From Candidatus Latescibacterota bacterium (GTDB taxonomy: Bacteria; Latescibacterota; UBA2968): a DNA stretch of 64,000 nucleotides. A program made the position numbers and the translations under genes. The notes under the pieces are model-generated. The model saw only the letters and a list, made by a program, of their open reading frames with translations. It did not search any database and had not been told where the DNA came from. The DNA lies in the NCBI GenBank assembly GCA_965204745.1, contig OZ242010.1:2880001-2944000 (forward strand), written 5' to 3'. Position 1 is the stretch's first letter; each line of letters opens with the position of its first letter. Positions 1 through 5,317 of the stretch are shown here, in pieces.

Positions 1-638
1 TCCCTGTCCAATCCCGTCACGAGCCGATCCACTTGGTGGTGGATTCTACCGGCCTGAAAGTGTATGGCGAAGGCGAATGGAAGGTGCGTCAACACGGCTT
101 TTGCAAGCGCCGGACTTGGCGCAAATTGCACATCGGCGTCGATGAGGCCACCGGGGAGATTGTCGCACAGACCCTGACCTCGGCAAGCGTTGATGACGCT
201 TCGCAGGTCAACCCCTTGCTCGATCAAGTCCCGGCCCCTGTCCATACGCTGGGCGCCGATGGCGGCTATGACAAACGCAAGGTCTTCAACACATGCGCCG
301 CCCCCAAACAAGGAGCCCCCATCCGACCTCTGATTCCCCCGCGCCATGATGCCAAAATTGAACAACACGGAAACAGGAAGGCACCCCCCCTCGCCCGCGA
401 TGAAATCATCCGAGCGATCAGGCGTCAAGGCCGCCGACAGTGGAAACGCACCAGTGGCTATCATCGTCGCTCGGTCGTTGAAACCCACATAGGCCGCTAC
501 AAACAACTCATTGGGCGGCAGTTGCGCGCACGAAAAAAGAAGAACCAAGAAACGGAAGCACGGTTGGGATGTGCGGTGCTCAATCGCATGATGAGGATCG
601 CGAAACCCGTGTCCTATCCCATAGAAAGAAGGGCTTAA
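1..638 (+). CDS. IS5-family (IS903 group) DDE transposase, 5' truncated by window edge
   Basis: Motifs HLVVDSTGLKVYGEGEW, RRTWRKLHIGVD, ADGGYD and W..SGYHRRSVVET are typical of IS903-group transposases. Confidence 0.92.
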   Translation, partial: PVQSRHEPIHLVVDSTGLKVYGEGEWKVRQHGFCKRRTWRKLHIGVDEATGEIVAQTLTSASVDDASQVNPLLDQVPAPVHTLGADGGYDKRKVFNTCAAPKQGAPIRPLIPPRHDAKIEQHGNRKAPPLARDEIIRAIRRQGRRQWKRTSGYHRRSVVETHIGRYKQLIGRQLRARKKKNQETEARLGCAVLNRMMRIAKPVSYPIERRA

Positions 639-728: not shown

Positions 729-890
729 GCGTTGTAAGCGTTGATTCTGTCGCCTGGTGTTATCCGTGTGGGGTGATCTCGTTGGGTATGGGTTGTTAGT
801 GGCGTGCGTCTTTGATGCAGAATAGGGGCTTGTGGGGCGTGCCTGACAAACGCCCCAATTTCTTTCTCTCTCTTATTGGAGGAGAGTAAA

Positions 891-3800
891 ATGTTGAAGC
901 GTATGTTTGGTTGTTTCGCAGTGGTCTTGTTGGCGGTGGCAATGCACCAGCCCGTAGCCGCCGGTCCCAATGCTAATGCCGTTCTGTCTTGGGACATCGA
1001 TGCCAGCGATAATAAAAGGGATGATGGCAATACATCGGGCACCGTGGCAGGTGCTGGTACCGATGTTGTCGTCGAGGTGTTTATCACGGGGTTGGCAGGC
1101 CCAATTATCGGTGGTGCGTTTTCCATTGATACGAATAGGCTGACCGTCAAAAGTGCGGCGGCTACGCCGGGGTTGTCGGTTCTTGGGACTACCGCAAGAA
1201 CTGTCTCATTAGGTGGTTTCCCACCGGGCGTTGCCCTGCCCAATGGCTATTTGGGAACGGTTACGCTTACGACAACTTCTGACGTAACAGGTACCGAATT
1301 CACAGTTAGTGCCAGCATAAATGTGGCGGATGGCACAAGTCCTTTTGCGACGGATATGCTCACCGCGGCGACGCCATTGACTTTTAATGCCTCTACGCAA
1401 ACGCCTACGCCCGATTTTAACGGCGATGGCACAGTAGACTTTGCAGACTTCGTGGTGTTTGCAGGGCAATTTGGCACGCGGCGCGGGGATAGCAGATACC
1501 AAGCGAAGTATGATTTGAATAGCGATGGCGCGATAGACTTTCGGGATTTTCTGAGTTTTGCCGGCAGTTATGGTCAGTCCGTGCCACCTAGTGGCGGGGG
1601 CGGTAGTAGCGGCGGTGGCGGTGGCGGTGGCGGTGGCAGTGGTGGTAGTGGTGGCGGTAGTAGCAGTCCCGATCTGGTCGTTGAATCGCCTTCGGTCAGC
1701 GATAGAACCTTGACGCCTGGGCAATCCTTCACCCTGCAAGCCACCGTTCGCAATCGGGGCACGGGGCAATCAGCCTCGACGACCCTGACCTATTACCGCT
1801 CGTCCAATTCGACGATCTCTACGAGCGATACAGAAGTGGGCACGGATTCGGTCAGCGGTCTGTCCGCTTCTCGCACGGGTTCGGAATCGATCAGGCTAAC
1901 TGCTCCGTCGAGTACCGGCACGTATTACTACGGCGCGTGTGTGGCAAGCGTCAGCGGGGAGAGCAATACCGACAACAACTGCTCAGAGGGCGTACGCGTT
2001 ACGGTCGTGACTTCCGATCTGATCGTTGAATCGCCATCGGTGGATAATACCACGCCGACGCCGGGGCAGTCGATCACCCTAAGCGCGACGGTGCGTAATC
2101 AAGGCACGGCTGAGGTAGCGGCGACGACCCTGCGCTATTATCAATCGTCTGACGCGACGATCACCACCGACGACACAGCAGTCGGCAAGGATGCCGTCCC
2201 CGAGCTAGCGGCTTCGGCGACGAGTGAGCAGTCAAGTAACGTGACCGCACCTTCGACCGCGGGCACGTATTACTACGGCGCGTGTGTGGAGGCGGTCAGC
2301 GGCGAGAGCAACACCGACAACAACTGCTCAACCGGCGTGCGCGTTACGGTGAGTAGCGGTGGCGGTAGTAGCGGCGGTGGCGGTGGCGGTGGCGGTAGTA
2401 GCAGTCCTGACCTGATCGTGGAACAGCCTTCGGTCAGCGAGAGCACGCTGACGTCTGAGCAATCCTTCACCCTGCAAGCCACAGTTCGCAACCGCGGCAC
2501 GGGGCAATCTCCCGAAACGACCCTGCACTATTATCAATCGTCCGACGCGACGATCACCACCGACGACACAGCAGTCGGCACGGATTTGGTCAACGGTCTG
2601 TCCGCTTCGCGCACGGGGGCGGAATCGATCAGTCTGACTGCACCTTCGACCGCGGGCACGTATTACTACGGCGCGTGTGTGGCAAGCGTCACCGGCGAGA
2701 GCGACACCAACAACAACTGCTCGGAGGGCGTGCGCGTCATGGTCGTTGTTCCTGACCTGATCGTTGAATCGTTTTCGGTCAGTGACAGTACGGTGGGTGT
2801 GGGTAAAGGCATCACTGCGCGTGCCACAGTTCGCAACCAGGGCATGGGGTCGTCAGAATCGACGAGGGTGGTTTTTTATGTGGACGATGATTCATATACT
2901 AATCCCCCCCACGTGCGCGGTCTTTCGGCTTCGGAGACGTATGAGGTATCGAGAGGGTTGAGAGTACCGTCGCGTCCTGGCACGTATTCCTACCACGCGT
3001 GCGTGGAGGATGTCCGCTACGAGACCAATACCGACAACAACTGCTCGAATGCTGTGCGCGTTACGGTCTTGGGTCCCGATCTGATCGTTGAATCGTTTTC
3101 GGTCAGTGACAGTACGGTGGGTGTGGGTAAAGGCATCACTGCGCGTGCCACAGTTCGCAACCAGGGCATGGGGTCGTCAGAATCGACGAGGGTGGTTTTT
3201 TATGTGGACGATGATTCATATACTAATCCCCCCCACGTGCGCGGTCTTTCGGCTTCGGAGACGTATGAGGTATCGAGAGGGTTGAGAGTACCGTCGCGTG
3301 CTGGCACGTATTCCTACCACGCGTGCGTGGAGGATGTCCGCGACGAGACCAATACCGACAACAACTGCTCGAATGCTGTGCGCGTTACGGTCTTGGGTCC
3401 CGATCTGATCGTTGAATCGTTTTCGGTCAGTGACAGTACGGTGGGTGTGGGTGACGTCATCACTGCGCGTGCCACAGTTCGCAACCAGGGCATGTGGCCG
3501 TCAGAATCGACGAGGGTGGTTTTTTATTGGGACGATAATTCATATACTAATCCCCCCCACGTGCGCGGTCTTTCGGCTTCGGAGACGTATGAGGTATCGA
3601 GCAGGTTGAGAGTACCGTCGCGTGCTGGCACGTATTCCTACCACGCGTGCGTGGAGGATGTCCGCGACGAGACCAATACCGACAACAACTGCTCGAATGC
3701 TGTGCGCGTTACGGTCTTGGGTCCCGATCTGATCGTTGAATCGGTTTCGGTCAGTGACAACACGGTGAACGTCGGTCAAGAATTCACTCTGTATGCCACA

Positions 3801-5192
3801 GTTCGCAACCAAGGCGGGAGGGCGTCAAGATCGACGATCCTGAGCTATTTCCGCTCGTCCAATTCGACGATCTCTACGAGCAATACAAAAGTGGGCAGGG
3901 ATTCGGTCAGCGGTCTTTCGGCTTCGGGCACGGGTTCGGAATCGATTAGTCTAACTGCTCCGTCGAGTGCTGGCACGTATTACTACGGCGCGTGTGTGTA
4001 TCCGGACCGCTACGAGAGCAACACCGACAACAACTGCTCGGATGGCGTGCGCGTTACGGTGAGTAGCGGCGGCGGCATTGTTGTTATTCCCGATGCCTAC
4101 CTACGCAATGTGATTTCGGACAGTTTGAACAAGGCACGCAGTGCGCCGATCACACGGGCGGACATGGCGACACTGACGCGGATTAACGCGCCAGGTAGCA
4201 TTACCGATTTGACAGGGCTTGAGTTTGCAACCAACCTGACAACGTTAGGGCTTCAACACAACCAGATATCGGATATCGCCGCATTATCGGGTTTAACCAA
4301 CCTGACATCGTTAAACCTTTGGAACAACCAAATCTCGGATATCGCCGCATTATCGGGATTAACCAACCTGACAATGTTAGACCTTGAAGGCAACCCAATC
4401 TCGGATATCGCCGCATTATCGGGTTTAACCAAACTGGAATGGTTATGGCTTAGATTAAACCAAATCTCGGATATCACCGCATTATCGGGATTAACCAACC
4501 TGACAACGTTAGGGCTTCAACACAACCAGATATCGGATATCGCCGCATTATCGGGATTAACCAACCTGACAACGTTAGGGCTTAGCGGCAACCGTATCTC
4601 GGATATCGCCGCATTATCGGGATTAACCAACCTGACAACGTTAGGGCTTAGCGGCAACCGTATCTCGGATATCGCCGCACTATCGGGATTAACCAACCTG
4701 ACATGGTTAGTCCTTTACGACAACCAGATCTCGGATATCGCCGCACTATCGGGTTTAACCAACCTGAGAACGTTAAACCTTGAGGACAACCAGATCTCGG
4801 ATATCGCCGCATTATCGGGATTAACCAACCTGACAGCGTTATTCCTTAGGGACAACCCGTTGAGTGCCACATCAATCAACACGCACATTCCTGCCCTTCG
4901 GGCCAGAGGGGTTACGGTCAATACTAGGAGGCCACAACCACCGACGCCACAACCACCGACGCCACAACCACCGACGCCACCTGGTGGCGGCAGTGGTGGG
5001 GGGGCCTGTTCGGTGGGGCAGGTGTTGAGTCCGGGGCAGAGTTGCAATGTCGGCAATAATCGGTTCGTGGTCCGCTCCGATGGATATGGGTGTTTTGGCT
5101 TTGCCTGCGCGGGCGAGAGTCTGACTAGCAACAGATTCCGAGCCAGCAGAATCGCCGGCACGTCGCGGTGGCGCATCGACGCACTGCCCTAA
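891..5192 (+). CDS. Large secreted surface protein: signal peptide, dockerin/EF-hand-like pair, Gly linkers, 7 CARDB/Ig-like repeats, 10 internalin-type LRRs, Pro-rich linker, small Cys-rich C-terminal domain
   Basis: GGAGGAG RBS before ATG 891; DFNGDGTVDFADF/DLNSDGAIDFRDF; 7x PDL(I/V)VE..SV...ATVRN.G...YYYGACV...E.NTDNNCS; 22-aa LxxLxLxxNQISDIAALSGLTN repeats. Confidence 0.9.
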   Translation: MLKRMFGCFAVVLLAVAMHQPVAAGPNANAVLSWDIDASDNKRDDGNTSGTVAGAGTDVVVEVFITGLAGPIIGGAFSIDTNRLTVKSAAATPGLSVLGTTARTVSLGGFPPGVALPNGYLGTVTLTTTSDVTGTEFTVSASINVADGTSPFATDMLTAATPLTFNASTQTPTPDFNGDGTVDFADFVVFAGQFGTRRGDSRYQAKYDLNSDGAIDFRDFLSFAGSYGQSVPPSGGGGSSGGGGGGGGGSGGSGGGSSSPDLVVESPSVSDRTLTPGQSFTLQATVRNRGTGQSASTTLTYYRSSNSTISTSDTEVGTDSVSGLSASRTGSESIRLTAPSSTGTYYYGACVASVSGESNTDNNCSEGVRVTVVTSDLIVESPSVDNTTPTPGQSITLSATVRNQGTAEVAATTLRYYQSSDATITTDDTAVGKDAVPELAASATSEQSSNVTAPSTAGTYYYGACVEAVSGESNTDNNCSTGVRVTVSSGGGSSGGGGGGGGSSSPDLIVEQPSVSESTLTSEQSFTLQATVRNRGTGQSPETTLHYYQSSDATITTDDTAVGTDLVNGLSASRTGAESISLTAPSTAGTYYYGACVASVTGESDTNNNCSEGVRVMVVVPDLIVESFSVSDSTVGVGKGITARATVRNQGMGSSESTRVVFYVDDDSYTNPPHVRGLSASETYEVSRGLRVPSRPGTYSYHACVEDVRYETNTDNNCSNAVRVTVLGPDLIVESFSVSDSTVGVGKGITARATVRNQGMGSSESTRVVFYVDDDSYTNPPHVRGLSASETYEVSRGLRVPSRAGTYSYHACVEDVRDETNTDNNCSNAVRVTVLGPDLIVESFSVSDSTVGVGDVITARATVRNQGMWPSESTRVVFYWDDNSYTNPPHVRGLSASETYEVSSRLRVPSRAGTYSYHACVEDVRDETNTDNNCSNAVRVTVLGPDLIVESVSVSDNTVNVGQEFTLYATVRNQGGRASRSTILSYFRSSNSTISTSNTKVGRDSVSGLSASGTGSESISLTAPSSAGTYYYGACVYPDRYESNTDNNCSDGVRVTVSSGGGIVVIPDAYLRNVISDSLNKARSAPITRADMATLTRINAPGSITDLTGLEFATNLTTLGLQHNQISDIAALSGLTNLTSLNLWNNQISDIAALSGLTNLTMLDLEGNPISDIAALSGLTKLEWLWLRLNQISDITALSGLTNLTTLGLQHNQISDIAALSGLTNLTTLGLSGNRISDIAALSGLTNLTTLGLSGNRISDIAALSGLTNLTWLVLYDNQISDIAALSGLTNLRTLNLEDNQISDIAALSGLTNLTALFLRDNPLSATSINTHIPALRARGVTVNTRRPQPPTPQPPTPQPPTPPGGGSGGGACSVGQVLSPGQSCNVGNNRFVVRSDGYGCFGFACAGESLTSNRFRASRIAGTSRWRIDALP
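2751..3722 (+). repeat. Three near-identical 324-bp tandem CARDB-coding repeats
   Basis: Units start at 2751, 3075 and 3399 and differ by only a few substitutions. Confidence 0.95.
4233..4860 (+). repeat. 66-bp LRR-coding tandem array (10 units)
   Basis: Near-constant ATCTCGGATATCGCCGCATTATCGGG(A/T)TTAACCAACCTG framework every 66 bp. Confidence 0.95.
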
Positions 5193-5207: not shown

Positions 5208-5250
5208 AAAGGGCCAGTGTAACGGCACAACCCCTTACACTGGCCCTTTT
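5208..5250 (+). terminator. Intrinsic terminator after the CARDB-LRR gene
   Basis: AAAGGGCCAGTGTAA / TTACACTGGCCCTTT 15-bp inverted repeat ending in a T-run. Confidence 0.75.
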
Positions 5251-5317
5251 CTGTATCCGAGATTTCAGAACGCCTACACTGGCCCTTTTCTGTATCCGAG
5301 ATTTCAGAACGCCTACA
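5236..5317 (+). repeat. 39-bp tandem duplication including the 3' arm of the terminator
   Basis: TACACTGGCCCTTTTCTGTATCCGAGATTTCAGAACGCC x2. Confidence 0.9.

What the first reader, a model, noticed from the sequence alone, without database searches (positions are those of the whole stretch)
4233..4860. LRR array hypervariable only at the concave-face codons (VLR-like diversification)
Seen: ten 66-bp units keep almost invariant framework DNA, even at synonymous sites (TTA, CTT, TCGGATATC). The x positions of LxxLxLxxN vary widely: TTLGLQH, TSLNLWN, TMLDLEG, EWLWLRL, TTLGLSG, TWLVLYD, RTLNLED, TALFLRD. At several x codons the third base is fixed (NNA, NNG, mostly NNC) while bases 1-2 change. 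Units 1 and 5 share a variable patch, as do 6 and 7. Established: these x positions form the ligand-binding face of internalin-type LRRs. Inference: a repeat-shuffling or gene-conversion system generating variable binders in a symbiont, analogous to lamprey VLRs.
Basis: partly seen in the sequence, partly recalled or inferred. Interest (0 to 1): 0.7.

Follow-up and report, generated by a model that had tools for sequence, protein, structure and literature searches.

The report
Sponge-symbiont LRR protein, variable binding face
A sponge-associated bacterium's secreted protein carries nine nearly identical leucine-rich repeats that differ almost only at the residues facing a ligand, a striking pattern best explained by ordinary repeat duplication, gene conversion and selection rather than by a dedicated diversity-generating machine.

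Summary
Window 4233-4892 holds nine full 66-bp internalin-type LRR units and a C-cap unit. 15 of 18 nucleotide columns in codons 3, 4, 6, 8, 9 and 11 vary, against 5 of 48 framework columns (Fisher p=3.5e-8).

The array sits in a 1,438-aa secreted modular protein of a Latescibacterota bacterium found in sponge metagenomes. It is one of 12 LRR genes (128 units) in this genome with the same pattern. All 30 related genomes searched carry such arrays.

The VLR/DGR-like reading is not supported:
- The only reverse transcriptase is an Ec67-type retron.
- No template copy or silent cassette exists.
- 117 of 128 variable patches are unique, and only one is shared between genes.
- An orthologous array pair in two related species keeps 45 of 48 variable-position residues.

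Evolutionary gene conversion is supported:
- Framework differences between those orthologues are mostly swaps of variants already present in other units (18 of 22).
- One gene has framework pS 0.000 beside a duplicated domain with pS 0.18.

Best reading: tandem unit duplication, framework homogenisation and selection for different concave-face residues. This regime is known from fungal NLR repeats and plant R genes. This scan noted the same pattern before on other DNA (phage LRR fibres). No strain-level data could be obtained.

The parts
891..5192 (+). Gene for a 1,433-aa (from ATG 891; 1,438 aa from TTG 876) secreted modular LRR protein
   Evidence: ORF 876..5192. Paralogues begin at the same MLKRMFG motif.
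891..965 (+). Probable Sec signal peptide (MLKRMFGCFAVVLLAVAMHQPVAAG)
   Evidence: Read from the translation. Inference only; no predictor was run.
1413..1553 (+). Dockerin-type Ca-binding repeat, at the end of an N-terminal module that recurs 82 times in this genome
   Evidence: Pfam Dockerin_1, 29.2 bits against cut-off 22.9. 82 matches to the N-terminal 275 aa in G000.
1671..4061 (+). Seven CARDB domains; the last ones form a 324-bp tandem repeat at 92% identity
   Evidence: Pfam CARDB E=1.5e-85, 7 stretches. TRF 2655-3837. Domain starts.
4080..4232 (+). LRR N-terminal cap
   Evidence: Helices at residues 7-32 of the model, low pLDDT. Aligned with the paralogue's cap.
4233..4826 (+). Nine full 22-residue internalin-type LRR units; variable codons are 3, 4, 6, 8, 9, 11 of each
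   Evidence: Pfam LRR_4 E=5.1e-48 and LRR_8 E=1.1e-33. InlA 1o6s E=1.1e-136.
4827..4925 (+). Tenth half-unit plus C-terminal cap (NLTALFLRDNPLSATSINTHIPALRARGVTV)
   Evidence: The same cap occurs in paralogues.
4926..4982 (+). Pro/Thr-rich linker (15-bp repeat)
   Evidence: TRF 4931-4980; translation.
4983..5189 (+). C-terminal Cys-containing module of about 65 aa, function unknown
   Evidence: No Pfam family at E<=0.01. Related tails at 5 other places in the genome.
1..635 (+). 3' part of an IS5-type DDE transposase gene, lying between this gene and its upstream LRR paralogue
   Evidence: Pfam DDE_Tnp_1 E=3.6e-28. ORF at genome 2879526-2880635.

Best explanation
The array is the ligand-binding domain of a secreted or surface protein. 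Its order is signal peptide, N-module with dockerin repeat, seven CARDB domains as a stalk, an internalin-type LRR horseshoe, a PT linker and a small C-terminal module. Each 22-residue unit contributes one beta-strand to the concave face. Codons 4, 6 and 8 point outwards from that strand, and codons 9 and 11 follow it.

The DNA pattern comes from ordinary evolution of a repeat family, in four steps:
1. Whole units are duplicated and lost by recombination between the identical framework stretches.
2. Short-tract gene conversion between units, and sometimes between paralogous genes, keeps the framework DNA uniform, synonymous sites included.
3. Selection favours different residues at the exposed positions of new units. 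Because almost only amino-acid-changing bases (codon positions 1-2) change, the third base is kept.
4. Once diversified, the exposed residues are conserved.

Shown here: the pattern, its genome-wide and clade-wide spread, the framework homogenisation, the stability of x residues between species, and the absence of a DGR and of cassettes.

Inferred: the selective cause, the confinement of conversion to the framework, and the binding function and partner (probably a sponge-host or other surface ligand).
For: Fold and family:
- Pfam LRR_4/LRR_8 and CARDB hits.
- InlA is the best solved match.
- In the AF2 model (pLDDT 83.5) the strands fall on codons 4-8 of each unit.

Spread of the pattern:
- 12 ORFs with 128 units in this genome. 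Amino-acid entropy is 3.4-3.8 bits at codons 4, 6, 8 and 9, 2.6 at codon 11, and <=1.5 at framework codons.
- 31 of 31 genomes searched, including G000, have matches.

x codons diverge far more than silent framework sites in young arrays:
- Focal array: framework pS 0.100 against x-codon pN 0.535.
- Arrays 10 and 11: framework pS 0.031 and 0.000 against x-codon pN 0.59 and 0.69.

Framework silent sites are free to change:
- In the relatives' arrays, framework pS ranges from 0.07 to 0.58.
- Between orthologues, framework pS is 0.099 against 0.129 in the neighbouring gene.
- The framework uses rare codons (TTA is 3% and CTT 7% of Leu codons), so codon optimisation does not hold it constant.

Homogenisation of the framework:
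- In gene 11, nine units in two LRR domains have framework pS 0.000, while the duplicated domain next to them has pS 0.179 (18.2 of 101.5 sites).
- Between the focal array and its neighbour paralogue, framework pS is 0.085. This equals the within-array values and is lower than in the caps and CARDB domain (0.13-0.24).
- Between orthologues L003 and L008, 18 of 22 framework differences toggle between states already present in other units. They fall in 9 of 48 columns.
- One unit of the neighbour paralogue carries the framework variant typical of the array at 5.228 Mb.

Stability of the x residues:
- 45 of 48 x-codon residues are identical between L003 and L008, which differ by one unit indel.
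- Each pair of loci L004, L005, L007 and L010, from four species, shares 4-7 x-signatures.

No dedicated machinery.
Against: - Short-tract conversion cannot reach the 3-bp framework islands inside the patch (codons 5 and 7). Yet these are invariant in every young array. Either the units are truly young and x codons changed very fast (omega well above 1), or conversion tracts sometimes cross the patch. I cannot separate these.
- The NG86 pS at x codons (0.44 in the focal array) exceeds the framework pS (0.10). This would also fit older or more mutable x codons, though pS is unreliable at multiply hit codons.
- The orthologue evidence comes from other genes of the family. The focal gene has no orthologue among the species representatives: the best foreign array is 64-66% identical. 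There is also no LRR match within about 290 kb of the syntenic neighbour gene in the closest relative.
- No strain-level or single-molecule data were obtained.
- Unit pairs are not independent, so the pS/pN contrasts are descriptive, not formal tests.
- No ligand or expression data.
Confidence: 0.7

Rival explanations
1. Recombinational shuffling as a selected diversity device. The 39 bp of identical framework between patches (codon 12 to codon 2 of the next unit) serve as crossover sites. Units are swapped, duplicated and deleted within and between the 12 genes. Strains of the population would then carry different binder repertoires: VLR-like in logic, but germline and on an evolutionary time scale.
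For: - Duplicated units (1/5 and 6/7), triplicated units in two other genes, and one patch shared between genes 1 and 6.
- A one-unit indel and an apparently replaced last unit between orthologues.
- A framework tract of another subfamily inside the neighbour paralogue.
- Units sharing a left half-patch with different right halves (TTLGL+QHNQ, +SGNR, +SGNQ).
Against: - 117 of 128 patches are unique, and only 1 is shared between genes.
- 45 of 48 x residues are kept between species in one orthologue pair.
- x-signatures are kept across four species in another set.
- No recombinase is consistently next to LRR loci. The two tyrosine recombinases are elsewhere, and the one nearby serine recombinase belongs to a six-copy 1.8-kb insertion element.
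Confidence: 0.12
2. Very recent amplification from one unit, followed only by intense positive selection at x codons, with no gene conversion.
For: - Embedded codons 2, 5, 7 and 10 show no silent variation in the young arrays 3, 4, 9, 10 and 11.
- The third base of the x codons is kept.
- Variants at an x codon are mostly one or two steps apart at positions 1-2.
Against: - Framework pS is 0.000 across two LRR domains of gene 11, while the co-duplicated neighbouring domain has pS 0.179.
- 18 of 22 framework differences between orthologues are toggles of shared variants.
- Between-paralogue framework pS is lower than that of the flanking domains.
Confidence: 0.12
3. Targeted hypermutation of the x codons, either by a diversity-generating retroelement (adenine mutagenesis from a template) or by another enzyme.
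For: - NNC, NNG and NNA codons with a fixed third base resemble DGR-mutated AAY codons.
- x-codon pS is higher than framework pS.
Against: - There is one RVT_1 match in the genome. It is a retron Ec67-type RT-Toprim (NCBIfam 708 bits against cut-off 450; PADLOC RT-Toprim_I-C E=1.8e-218), 2.1 Mb away.
- All 101 framework-like 33-mers (up to 8 mismatches) lie in coding arrays or in a kinase gene tail. None is a non-coding template.
- The framework is full of adenines that never vary.
- x residues are conserved between species.
Confidence: 0.02
4. Assembly or polishing artefact that made the framework look uniform.
For: Repeats are hard to assemble, and short-read contigs break throughout the array.
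Against: - The genome is a single 5.48-Mb contig.
- Run X1 contigs match 4046-4139, 4407-4487 and 4674-4751 exactly.
- The same pattern recurs in 12 genes here and in independent assemblies of other species.
Confidence: 0.02

Closest known systems
Internalin-type (22-residue) LRR domains, e.g. Listeria InlA (PDB 1o6s) and InlB
   Same: - The same 22-residue unit, LxxLxLxxNxIsDIsxLsgLtn.
- phmmer E=1.1e-136 to InlA.
- A beta-strand plus short-helix solenoid in the model.
- That ligand contact runs through the concave strand residues is established knowledge for InlA/E-cadherin, recalled rather than tested here.
   Different: - Not an InlA/InlH equivalogue: NCBIfam scores are 180 and 163 bits against cut-offs 1600 and 1050.
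- Different architecture: dockerin, CARDB stalk and a Cys-rich tail. No Ig-like inter-repeat region or LPXTG/GW anchor was found by Pfam.
- The convex half of the unit is far more uniform than in Listeria internalins.
Repeats with high internal conservation in fungal NLRs (Podospora het-e/het-d/nwd WD40, ANK, TPR repeats), Dyrka et al. 2014, PMC4986451 (passages read)
   Same: - Near-identical repeats.
- Concerted evolution within and between paralogues.
- Repeat-number change.
- Diversifying selection on a few positions per repeat that map to the binding surface.
   Different: - Bacterial, extracellular, and LRR. That paper states that no LRR motifs were found in fungal NLRs.
- No RIP-type mutagenesis is available here.
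- Amino-acid identity between units is 79% here, below their 85% criterion.
- Repeat-number polymorphism was seen here only between species and in another gene of the family.
Solvent-exposed xxLxLxx residues of plant NBS-LRR and RLP resistance genes (positive selection with sequence exchange between paralogues)
   Same: Variable concave-face residues on a conserved framework in clustered multigene families. Search listings and abstracts only: PMC3113787, PMC3645687, PMC6771003.
   Different: In plants the repeats of one gene are usually not near-identical at the DNA level. They are eukaryotic immune receptors.
Eukaryotic-like repeat proteins (ELPs) of sponge symbionts, including Latescibacterota MAGs (PMC12993501, passages read)
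   Same: LRR proteins are reported in all ten sponge-associated Latescibacterota MAGs of that study. This genome's relatives are labelled Latescibacterota, and sponge metagenomes hold this DNA.
   Different: In the passages I read, that paper counts domains only. It does not describe the DNA-level pattern.
Lamprey VLR assembly and DGRs
   Same: LRR concave-face diversity (VLR); variable codons with a fixed third base (DGR).
   Different: - No incomplete germline gene with silent cassettes.
- No DGR reverse transcriptase or template.
- x residues are stable between species.

Membership tests
Internalin-type 22-residue LRR domain (Pfam LRR_4/LRR_8) | Tandem 22-residue units with LxxLxLxxNxIxDIxxLxxL | tested here: met
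   Nine full units and a cap unit. LRR_4 scores 160.5 bits against cut-off 27; LRR_8 scores 115.2 against 27.
Internalin-type 22-residue LRR domain (Pfam LRR_4/LRR_8) | Solenoid of one beta-strand and one short helix per unit; similarity to solved internalins | tested here: met
   AF2 single-sequence model: pLDDT 83.5, pTM 0.82, strand and helix every 22 residues. InlA 1o6s E=1.1e-136.
Class 1 internalin (InlA / InlH equivalogues) | Whole-protein score over the NCBIfam cut-off | tested here: not met
   internalin_A 180.4 bits against 1600; internalin_H 163.3 against 1050.
Diversity-generating retroelement target | DGR-type reverse transcriptase in the genome | tested here: not met
   One RVT_1 match in 5.48 Mb. 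It is a retron Ec67-family RT-Toprim.
Diversity-generating retroelement target | Template repeat near-identical to the variable region, differing at adenines | tested here: not met
   All 101 genome matches to the 33-nt framework (up to 8 mismatches) lie inside LRR coding frames. Framework adenines are invariant.
VLR-like cassette assembly / silent-cassette gene conversion | Non-expressed donor cassettes and an incomplete expression site; a limited, reused module repertoire | tested here: not met
   Units lie in 12 long ORFs plus one kinase tail. 117 of 128 patches are unique, and 1 is shared between genes. The ORF at 5228087-5229061 lacks a signal peptide and may be a broken gene, but it shares no patch.
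VLR-like cassette assembly / silent-cassette gene conversion | Variation between cells of one population | tested here: inconclusive
   Only short Logan contigs could be laid. Their differences fall on x codons but cannot be told from paralogues.
Invertase or shufflon-type switching | Site-specific recombinase next to inverted gene segments | tested here: not met
   Two Phage_integrase matches lie far away. Of six Resolvase matches, one lies 1.3 kb upstream of the paralogue but is part of a six-copy 1.8-kb insertion element. The arrays of a locus share one orientation.
Concerted-evolution repeats with diversifying selection (regime of fungal NLR repeats) | High internal conservation of repeats | tested here: met
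   Framework nucleotide identity 96.4%, whole-unit nucleotide identity 85%, amino-acid identity 79%. The 79% is below the 85% amino-acid criterion of PMC4986451.
Concerted-evolution repeats with diversifying selection (regime of fungal NLR repeats) | Exchange between repeats and paralogues | tested here: met
   (contrasts and toggling). No formal conversion-tract test was run.
Concerted-evolution repeats with diversifying selection (regime of fungal NLR repeats) | Excess amino-acid change at surface positions | tested here: met
   x-codon pN 0.535 against framework pS 0.100 in the focal array; ratios of 5 to over 19 in young arrays. These are uncorrected proportions and the pairs are not independent.
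Concerted-evolution repeats with diversifying selection (regime of fungal NLR repeats) | Repeat-number polymorphism between strains | not testable with these tools
   Seen only between two species, in another gene (9 against 10 units). No strains of this species were available.

The most novel reading that the evidence does not exclude
The roughly 12 LRR genes of each of these sponge-associated Latescibacterota form a recombination-driven binder library. Rare-codon framework DNA is kept identical by conversion, and because it is identical it lets units be duplicated, swapped and re-diversified quickly. Each lineage would thus build lineage-specific recognition surfaces for host or phage ligands. 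This would be a bacterial, germline counterpart of the fungal NLR repeat system, and in logic of VLRs.
Probability: 0.12. Interest if true: 0.65.

Novelty: new member of a known kind. Interest (0 to 1): 0.3.

Why it matters
LRR and other eukaryote-like repeat proteins are thought to mediate recognition between sponge symbionts and their hosts, yet their ligands are unknown. This family marks five or six residues per repeat as the likely contact positions. It also contains both old arrays conserved across species and young lineage-specific arrays such as this one. That gives a rational starting point for ligand hunts and for comparing strains between sponge hosts.

It is also a clean bacterial example of framework homogenisation coexisting with surface diversification, a regime mostly described in eukaryotic immune receptors. 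It does not reveal a new diversification mechanism.

Tried and rejected
- **DGR:** rejected.
- **Invertase or shufflon:** rejected.
- **Limited cassette repertoire (TALE or VLR-like):** rejected.
- **Codon-usage or silent-site constraint on the framework:** rejected. The relatives' arrays reach framework pS 0.58. Orthologue framework pS (0.099) is close to the neighbour gene's (0.129). The framework uses the rarest Leu codons.
- **Read-level variation:** four runs were laid (X1, X3, X4, X5). Only contigs of about 64-166 bases cover the array. All listed differences inside the array fall on x codons, but contigs at 90-95% identity may come from paralogues or related species, so nothing can be concluded.
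- **RNA evidence:** no RNA holder listed.
- **Strain variants:** an exact 30-mer of the unique C-terminal region found 0 stretches in metagenome contigs. The protein search of the LRR plus tail found 3,266 proteins at E<=1e-20 among 7,999 scored, but the best identity among the 120 listed was 67%, so no strain variants.
- **Orthologue of the focal gene:** none among the 30 relatives (best 64-66%). There is no LRR match next to the syntenic neighbour gene in the closest relative.
- **Not tried:** Fold search, complex prediction, and a formal codon model or conversion-tract test.
Full report
**What is there**

ORF 876..5192 (+) encodes a 1,438-aa protein; the likely start is the ATG at 891. Pfam finds a dockerin-type repeat, seven CARDB domains and LRR_4/LRR_8 repeats. 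NCBIfam gives internalin A/H matches far below their cut-offs. A hydrophobic N-terminus, a Pro/Thr linker and a 65-aa Cys-containing tail without any Pfam family complete the protein. Related tails occur at five other places in the genome.

The LRR part is an N-cap (4080-4232), nine full 66-bp units (4233-4826) and a half unit that runs into the C-cap (4827-4925). The best solved relative is Listeria InlA (1o6s, E=1.1e-136). A single-sequence AlphaFold model (pLDDT 83.5) places a five-residue strand on codons 4-8 of every unit and a short helix on codons 16-20. Codons 4, 6 and 8 are therefore the outward-facing strand residues of the concave sheet.

**Checking the observation**

Among the nine full units, 15 of 18 columns in codons 3, 4, 6, 8, 9 and 11 vary, against 5 of 48 framework columns (Fisher p=3.5e-8). 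The minimum number of changes is 27 against 5. Framework nucleotide identity is 96.4% and x-codon identity is 53.4%; chance is about 26%.

Over the ten units, codon 3 is NNA and codon 4 is NNG in 10 of 10, and codon 9 is NNC in 9 of 10. Units 1/5 and 6/7 differ by one base each. Short-read contigs of run X1 reproduce two of the variable patches exactly.

**It is a family trait, not a local oddity**

The laid genome is one 5.48-Mb contig with 56.5% G+C. It holds 12 reading frames with 128 units of the same 22-residue type, plus a one-unit LRR at the tail of a Ser/Thr kinase gene. Across the 128 units, amino-acid entropy is 3.4-3.8 bits at codons 4, 6, 8 and 9, and 2.6 at codon 11. It is at most 1.5 in the framework.

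All 31 genomes searched (G000 and 30 relatives of the same genus or order) carry such arrays. The neighbouring housekeeping gene's closest relatives (90-64% identity) are MAGs titled Latescibacterota. Four sponge metagenome runs hold parts of the stretch. Three of them, when laid, contain contigs that differ from the unique C-terminal region at 2-4 bases over 163-211. A paper on sponge-associated Latescibacterota MAGs reports LRR proteins in all ten MAGs (PMC12993501, passages read).

**Tests of a dedicated diversification system**

- *Reverse transcriptase.* There is one RVT_1 match in the genome, at 5.01 Mb. It is a retron Ec67-family RT-Toprim.
- *Template or silent cassettes.* All 101 matches to the 33-nt framework (up to 8 mismatches) lie in the coding arrays or the kinase tail.
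- *Module repertoire.* 117 of 128 27-nt patches are unique. Nine patches occur more than once, eight of them within one gene and one between two genes.
- *Recombinases.* Two tyrosine recombinases lie elsewhere. One of six resolvase-domain genes lies 1.3 kb upstream of the neighbouring paralogue, but it belongs to a 1.8-kb element present in six copies. An IS5-type transposase lies between the two paralogues.
- *Stability between species.* L003 and L008, from two species of the genus, are orthologues that differ by one unit. In eight aligned full units, 45 of 48 x-codon residues are identical. There are 7 x-codon base differences against 22 in the framework. Over nine units, x-codon pN is 0.096 and framework pS is 0.099; the neighbouring gene has pS 0.129. 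Each pair of arrays L004, L005, L007 and L010, from four species, shares 4-7 x-signatures.

The exposed residues are therefore inherited stably, not re-randomised.

**How the pattern arises**

In young arrays, x-codon pN is about 0.55-0.69 while framework pS is 0-0.10. In the relatives' arrays, framework pS reaches 0.58. The framework uses TTA (3% of Leu codons) and CTT (7%). Silent framework sites are thus free to change, and their uniformity is not codon optimisation.

Three results point to homogenisation:
- In gene 11, nine units spread over two LRR domains have framework pS 0.000. The duplicated domain that follows each LRR domain has pS 0.179.
- Between the focal array and its neighbour paralogue, framework pS (0.085) equals the within-array values. 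It is lower than in the caps and CARDB domain (0.13, 0.21, 0.24).
- 18 of 22 framework differences between the L003 and L008 orthologues are toggles between variants present in other units, and they fall in 9 of 48 columns.

One unit of the neighbour paralogue carries the framework variant typical of the array at 5.228 Mb.

The 3-bp framework islands inside the patch (codons 5 and 7) are also invariant in young arrays, and the third base of the x codons is retained. This argues that x codons of new units change fast and almost only by amino-acid-changing steps, which means selection. I therefore combine unit duplication, framework conversion and diversifying selection. I cannot apportion them.

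**Limits**

- The pS and pN values are uncorrected Nei-Gojobori proportions over non-independent unit pairs.
- Units were defined by a regular expression, and divergent units are missed.
- The orthologue evidence is from other genes of the family.
- The focal gene has no orthologue in the 30 relatives. There is no LRR gene at the syntenic place in the closest one. It appears lineage-specific and young.
- No strain-level data were found.

**Comparison and verdict**

The regime matches that described for highly internally conserved WD40, ANK and TPR repeats of fungal NLRs: concerted evolution, repeat-number change, and diversifying selection on binding-surface positions (PMC4986451, passages read). 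It also matches that reported for plant R-gene LRRs (listings and abstracts only).

Earlier notes of this scan describe the same pattern in phage LRR fibre genes on other DNA and reached the same conclusion. I did not test those.

This is a new, clean bacterial member of a known kind. It is striking to look at, but there is no evidence for a new mechanism.

Noticed in passing
window 1-635 (continues upstream to genome 2879526): An IS5-type DDE transposase gene (Pfam DDE_Tnp_1, E=3.6e-28) sits between the focal gene and its upstream LRR paralogue (genome 2877870-2879495). A six-copy 1.8-kb element with a serine recombinase and a TnpB-like frame lies just upstream of that paralogue.
   Followed up: partly
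window 2655-3837: The CARDB domains form a 324-bp tandem repeat (3.7 copies, 92% matches). The few amino-acid differences between copies come in small clusters (KG/DV, GS/WP, RG/SR).
   Followed up: no
window 5236-5317: A perfect 39-bp direct repeat (2.1 copies) starts about 45 bp after the stop codon of the LRR gene.
   Followed up: no
window 876-1700: The N-terminal module with the dockerin repeat has 82 matches in this genome and 38-115 in each of 20 genomes of the genus, heading many different modular proteins. In the L003/L008 orthologue pair this part has pS 0.010, against 0.129 in the neighbouring gene.
   Followed up: partly
window 4983-5189: The 65-aa Cys-containing C-terminal module has no Pfam family. 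It recurs at five other places in the genome (37-68% identity), three of them in a cluster at 3.241-3.251 Mb.
   Followed up: partly
genome 4212719-4214368 (outside the window): A Ser/Thr kinase-like frame with a membrane segment and a coiled-coil (EEARR repeats) ends in an LRR N-cap, a single LRR unit and the C-cap. The cap DNA is 90% identical to that of the focal gene.
   Followed up: partly
window 4233-4826 and all arrays: Leu codon 7 is CTT almost everywhere in the family: 70 of 81 units even in the relatives' divergent arrays. CTT is only 7% of Leu codons in this genome. The focal framework also uses TTA (3%) for three of its five Leu codons, and the array's G+C falls to about 45-50% against 56.5% for the genome.
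   Followed up: partly
loci L004, L005, L007, L010: Arrays from four species share an ordered series of x-signatures (TWSARS, TQYQGD, TRSQD., TRYHTR ...) that repeats within each array, suggesting a higher-order repeat of several units.
   Followed up: no
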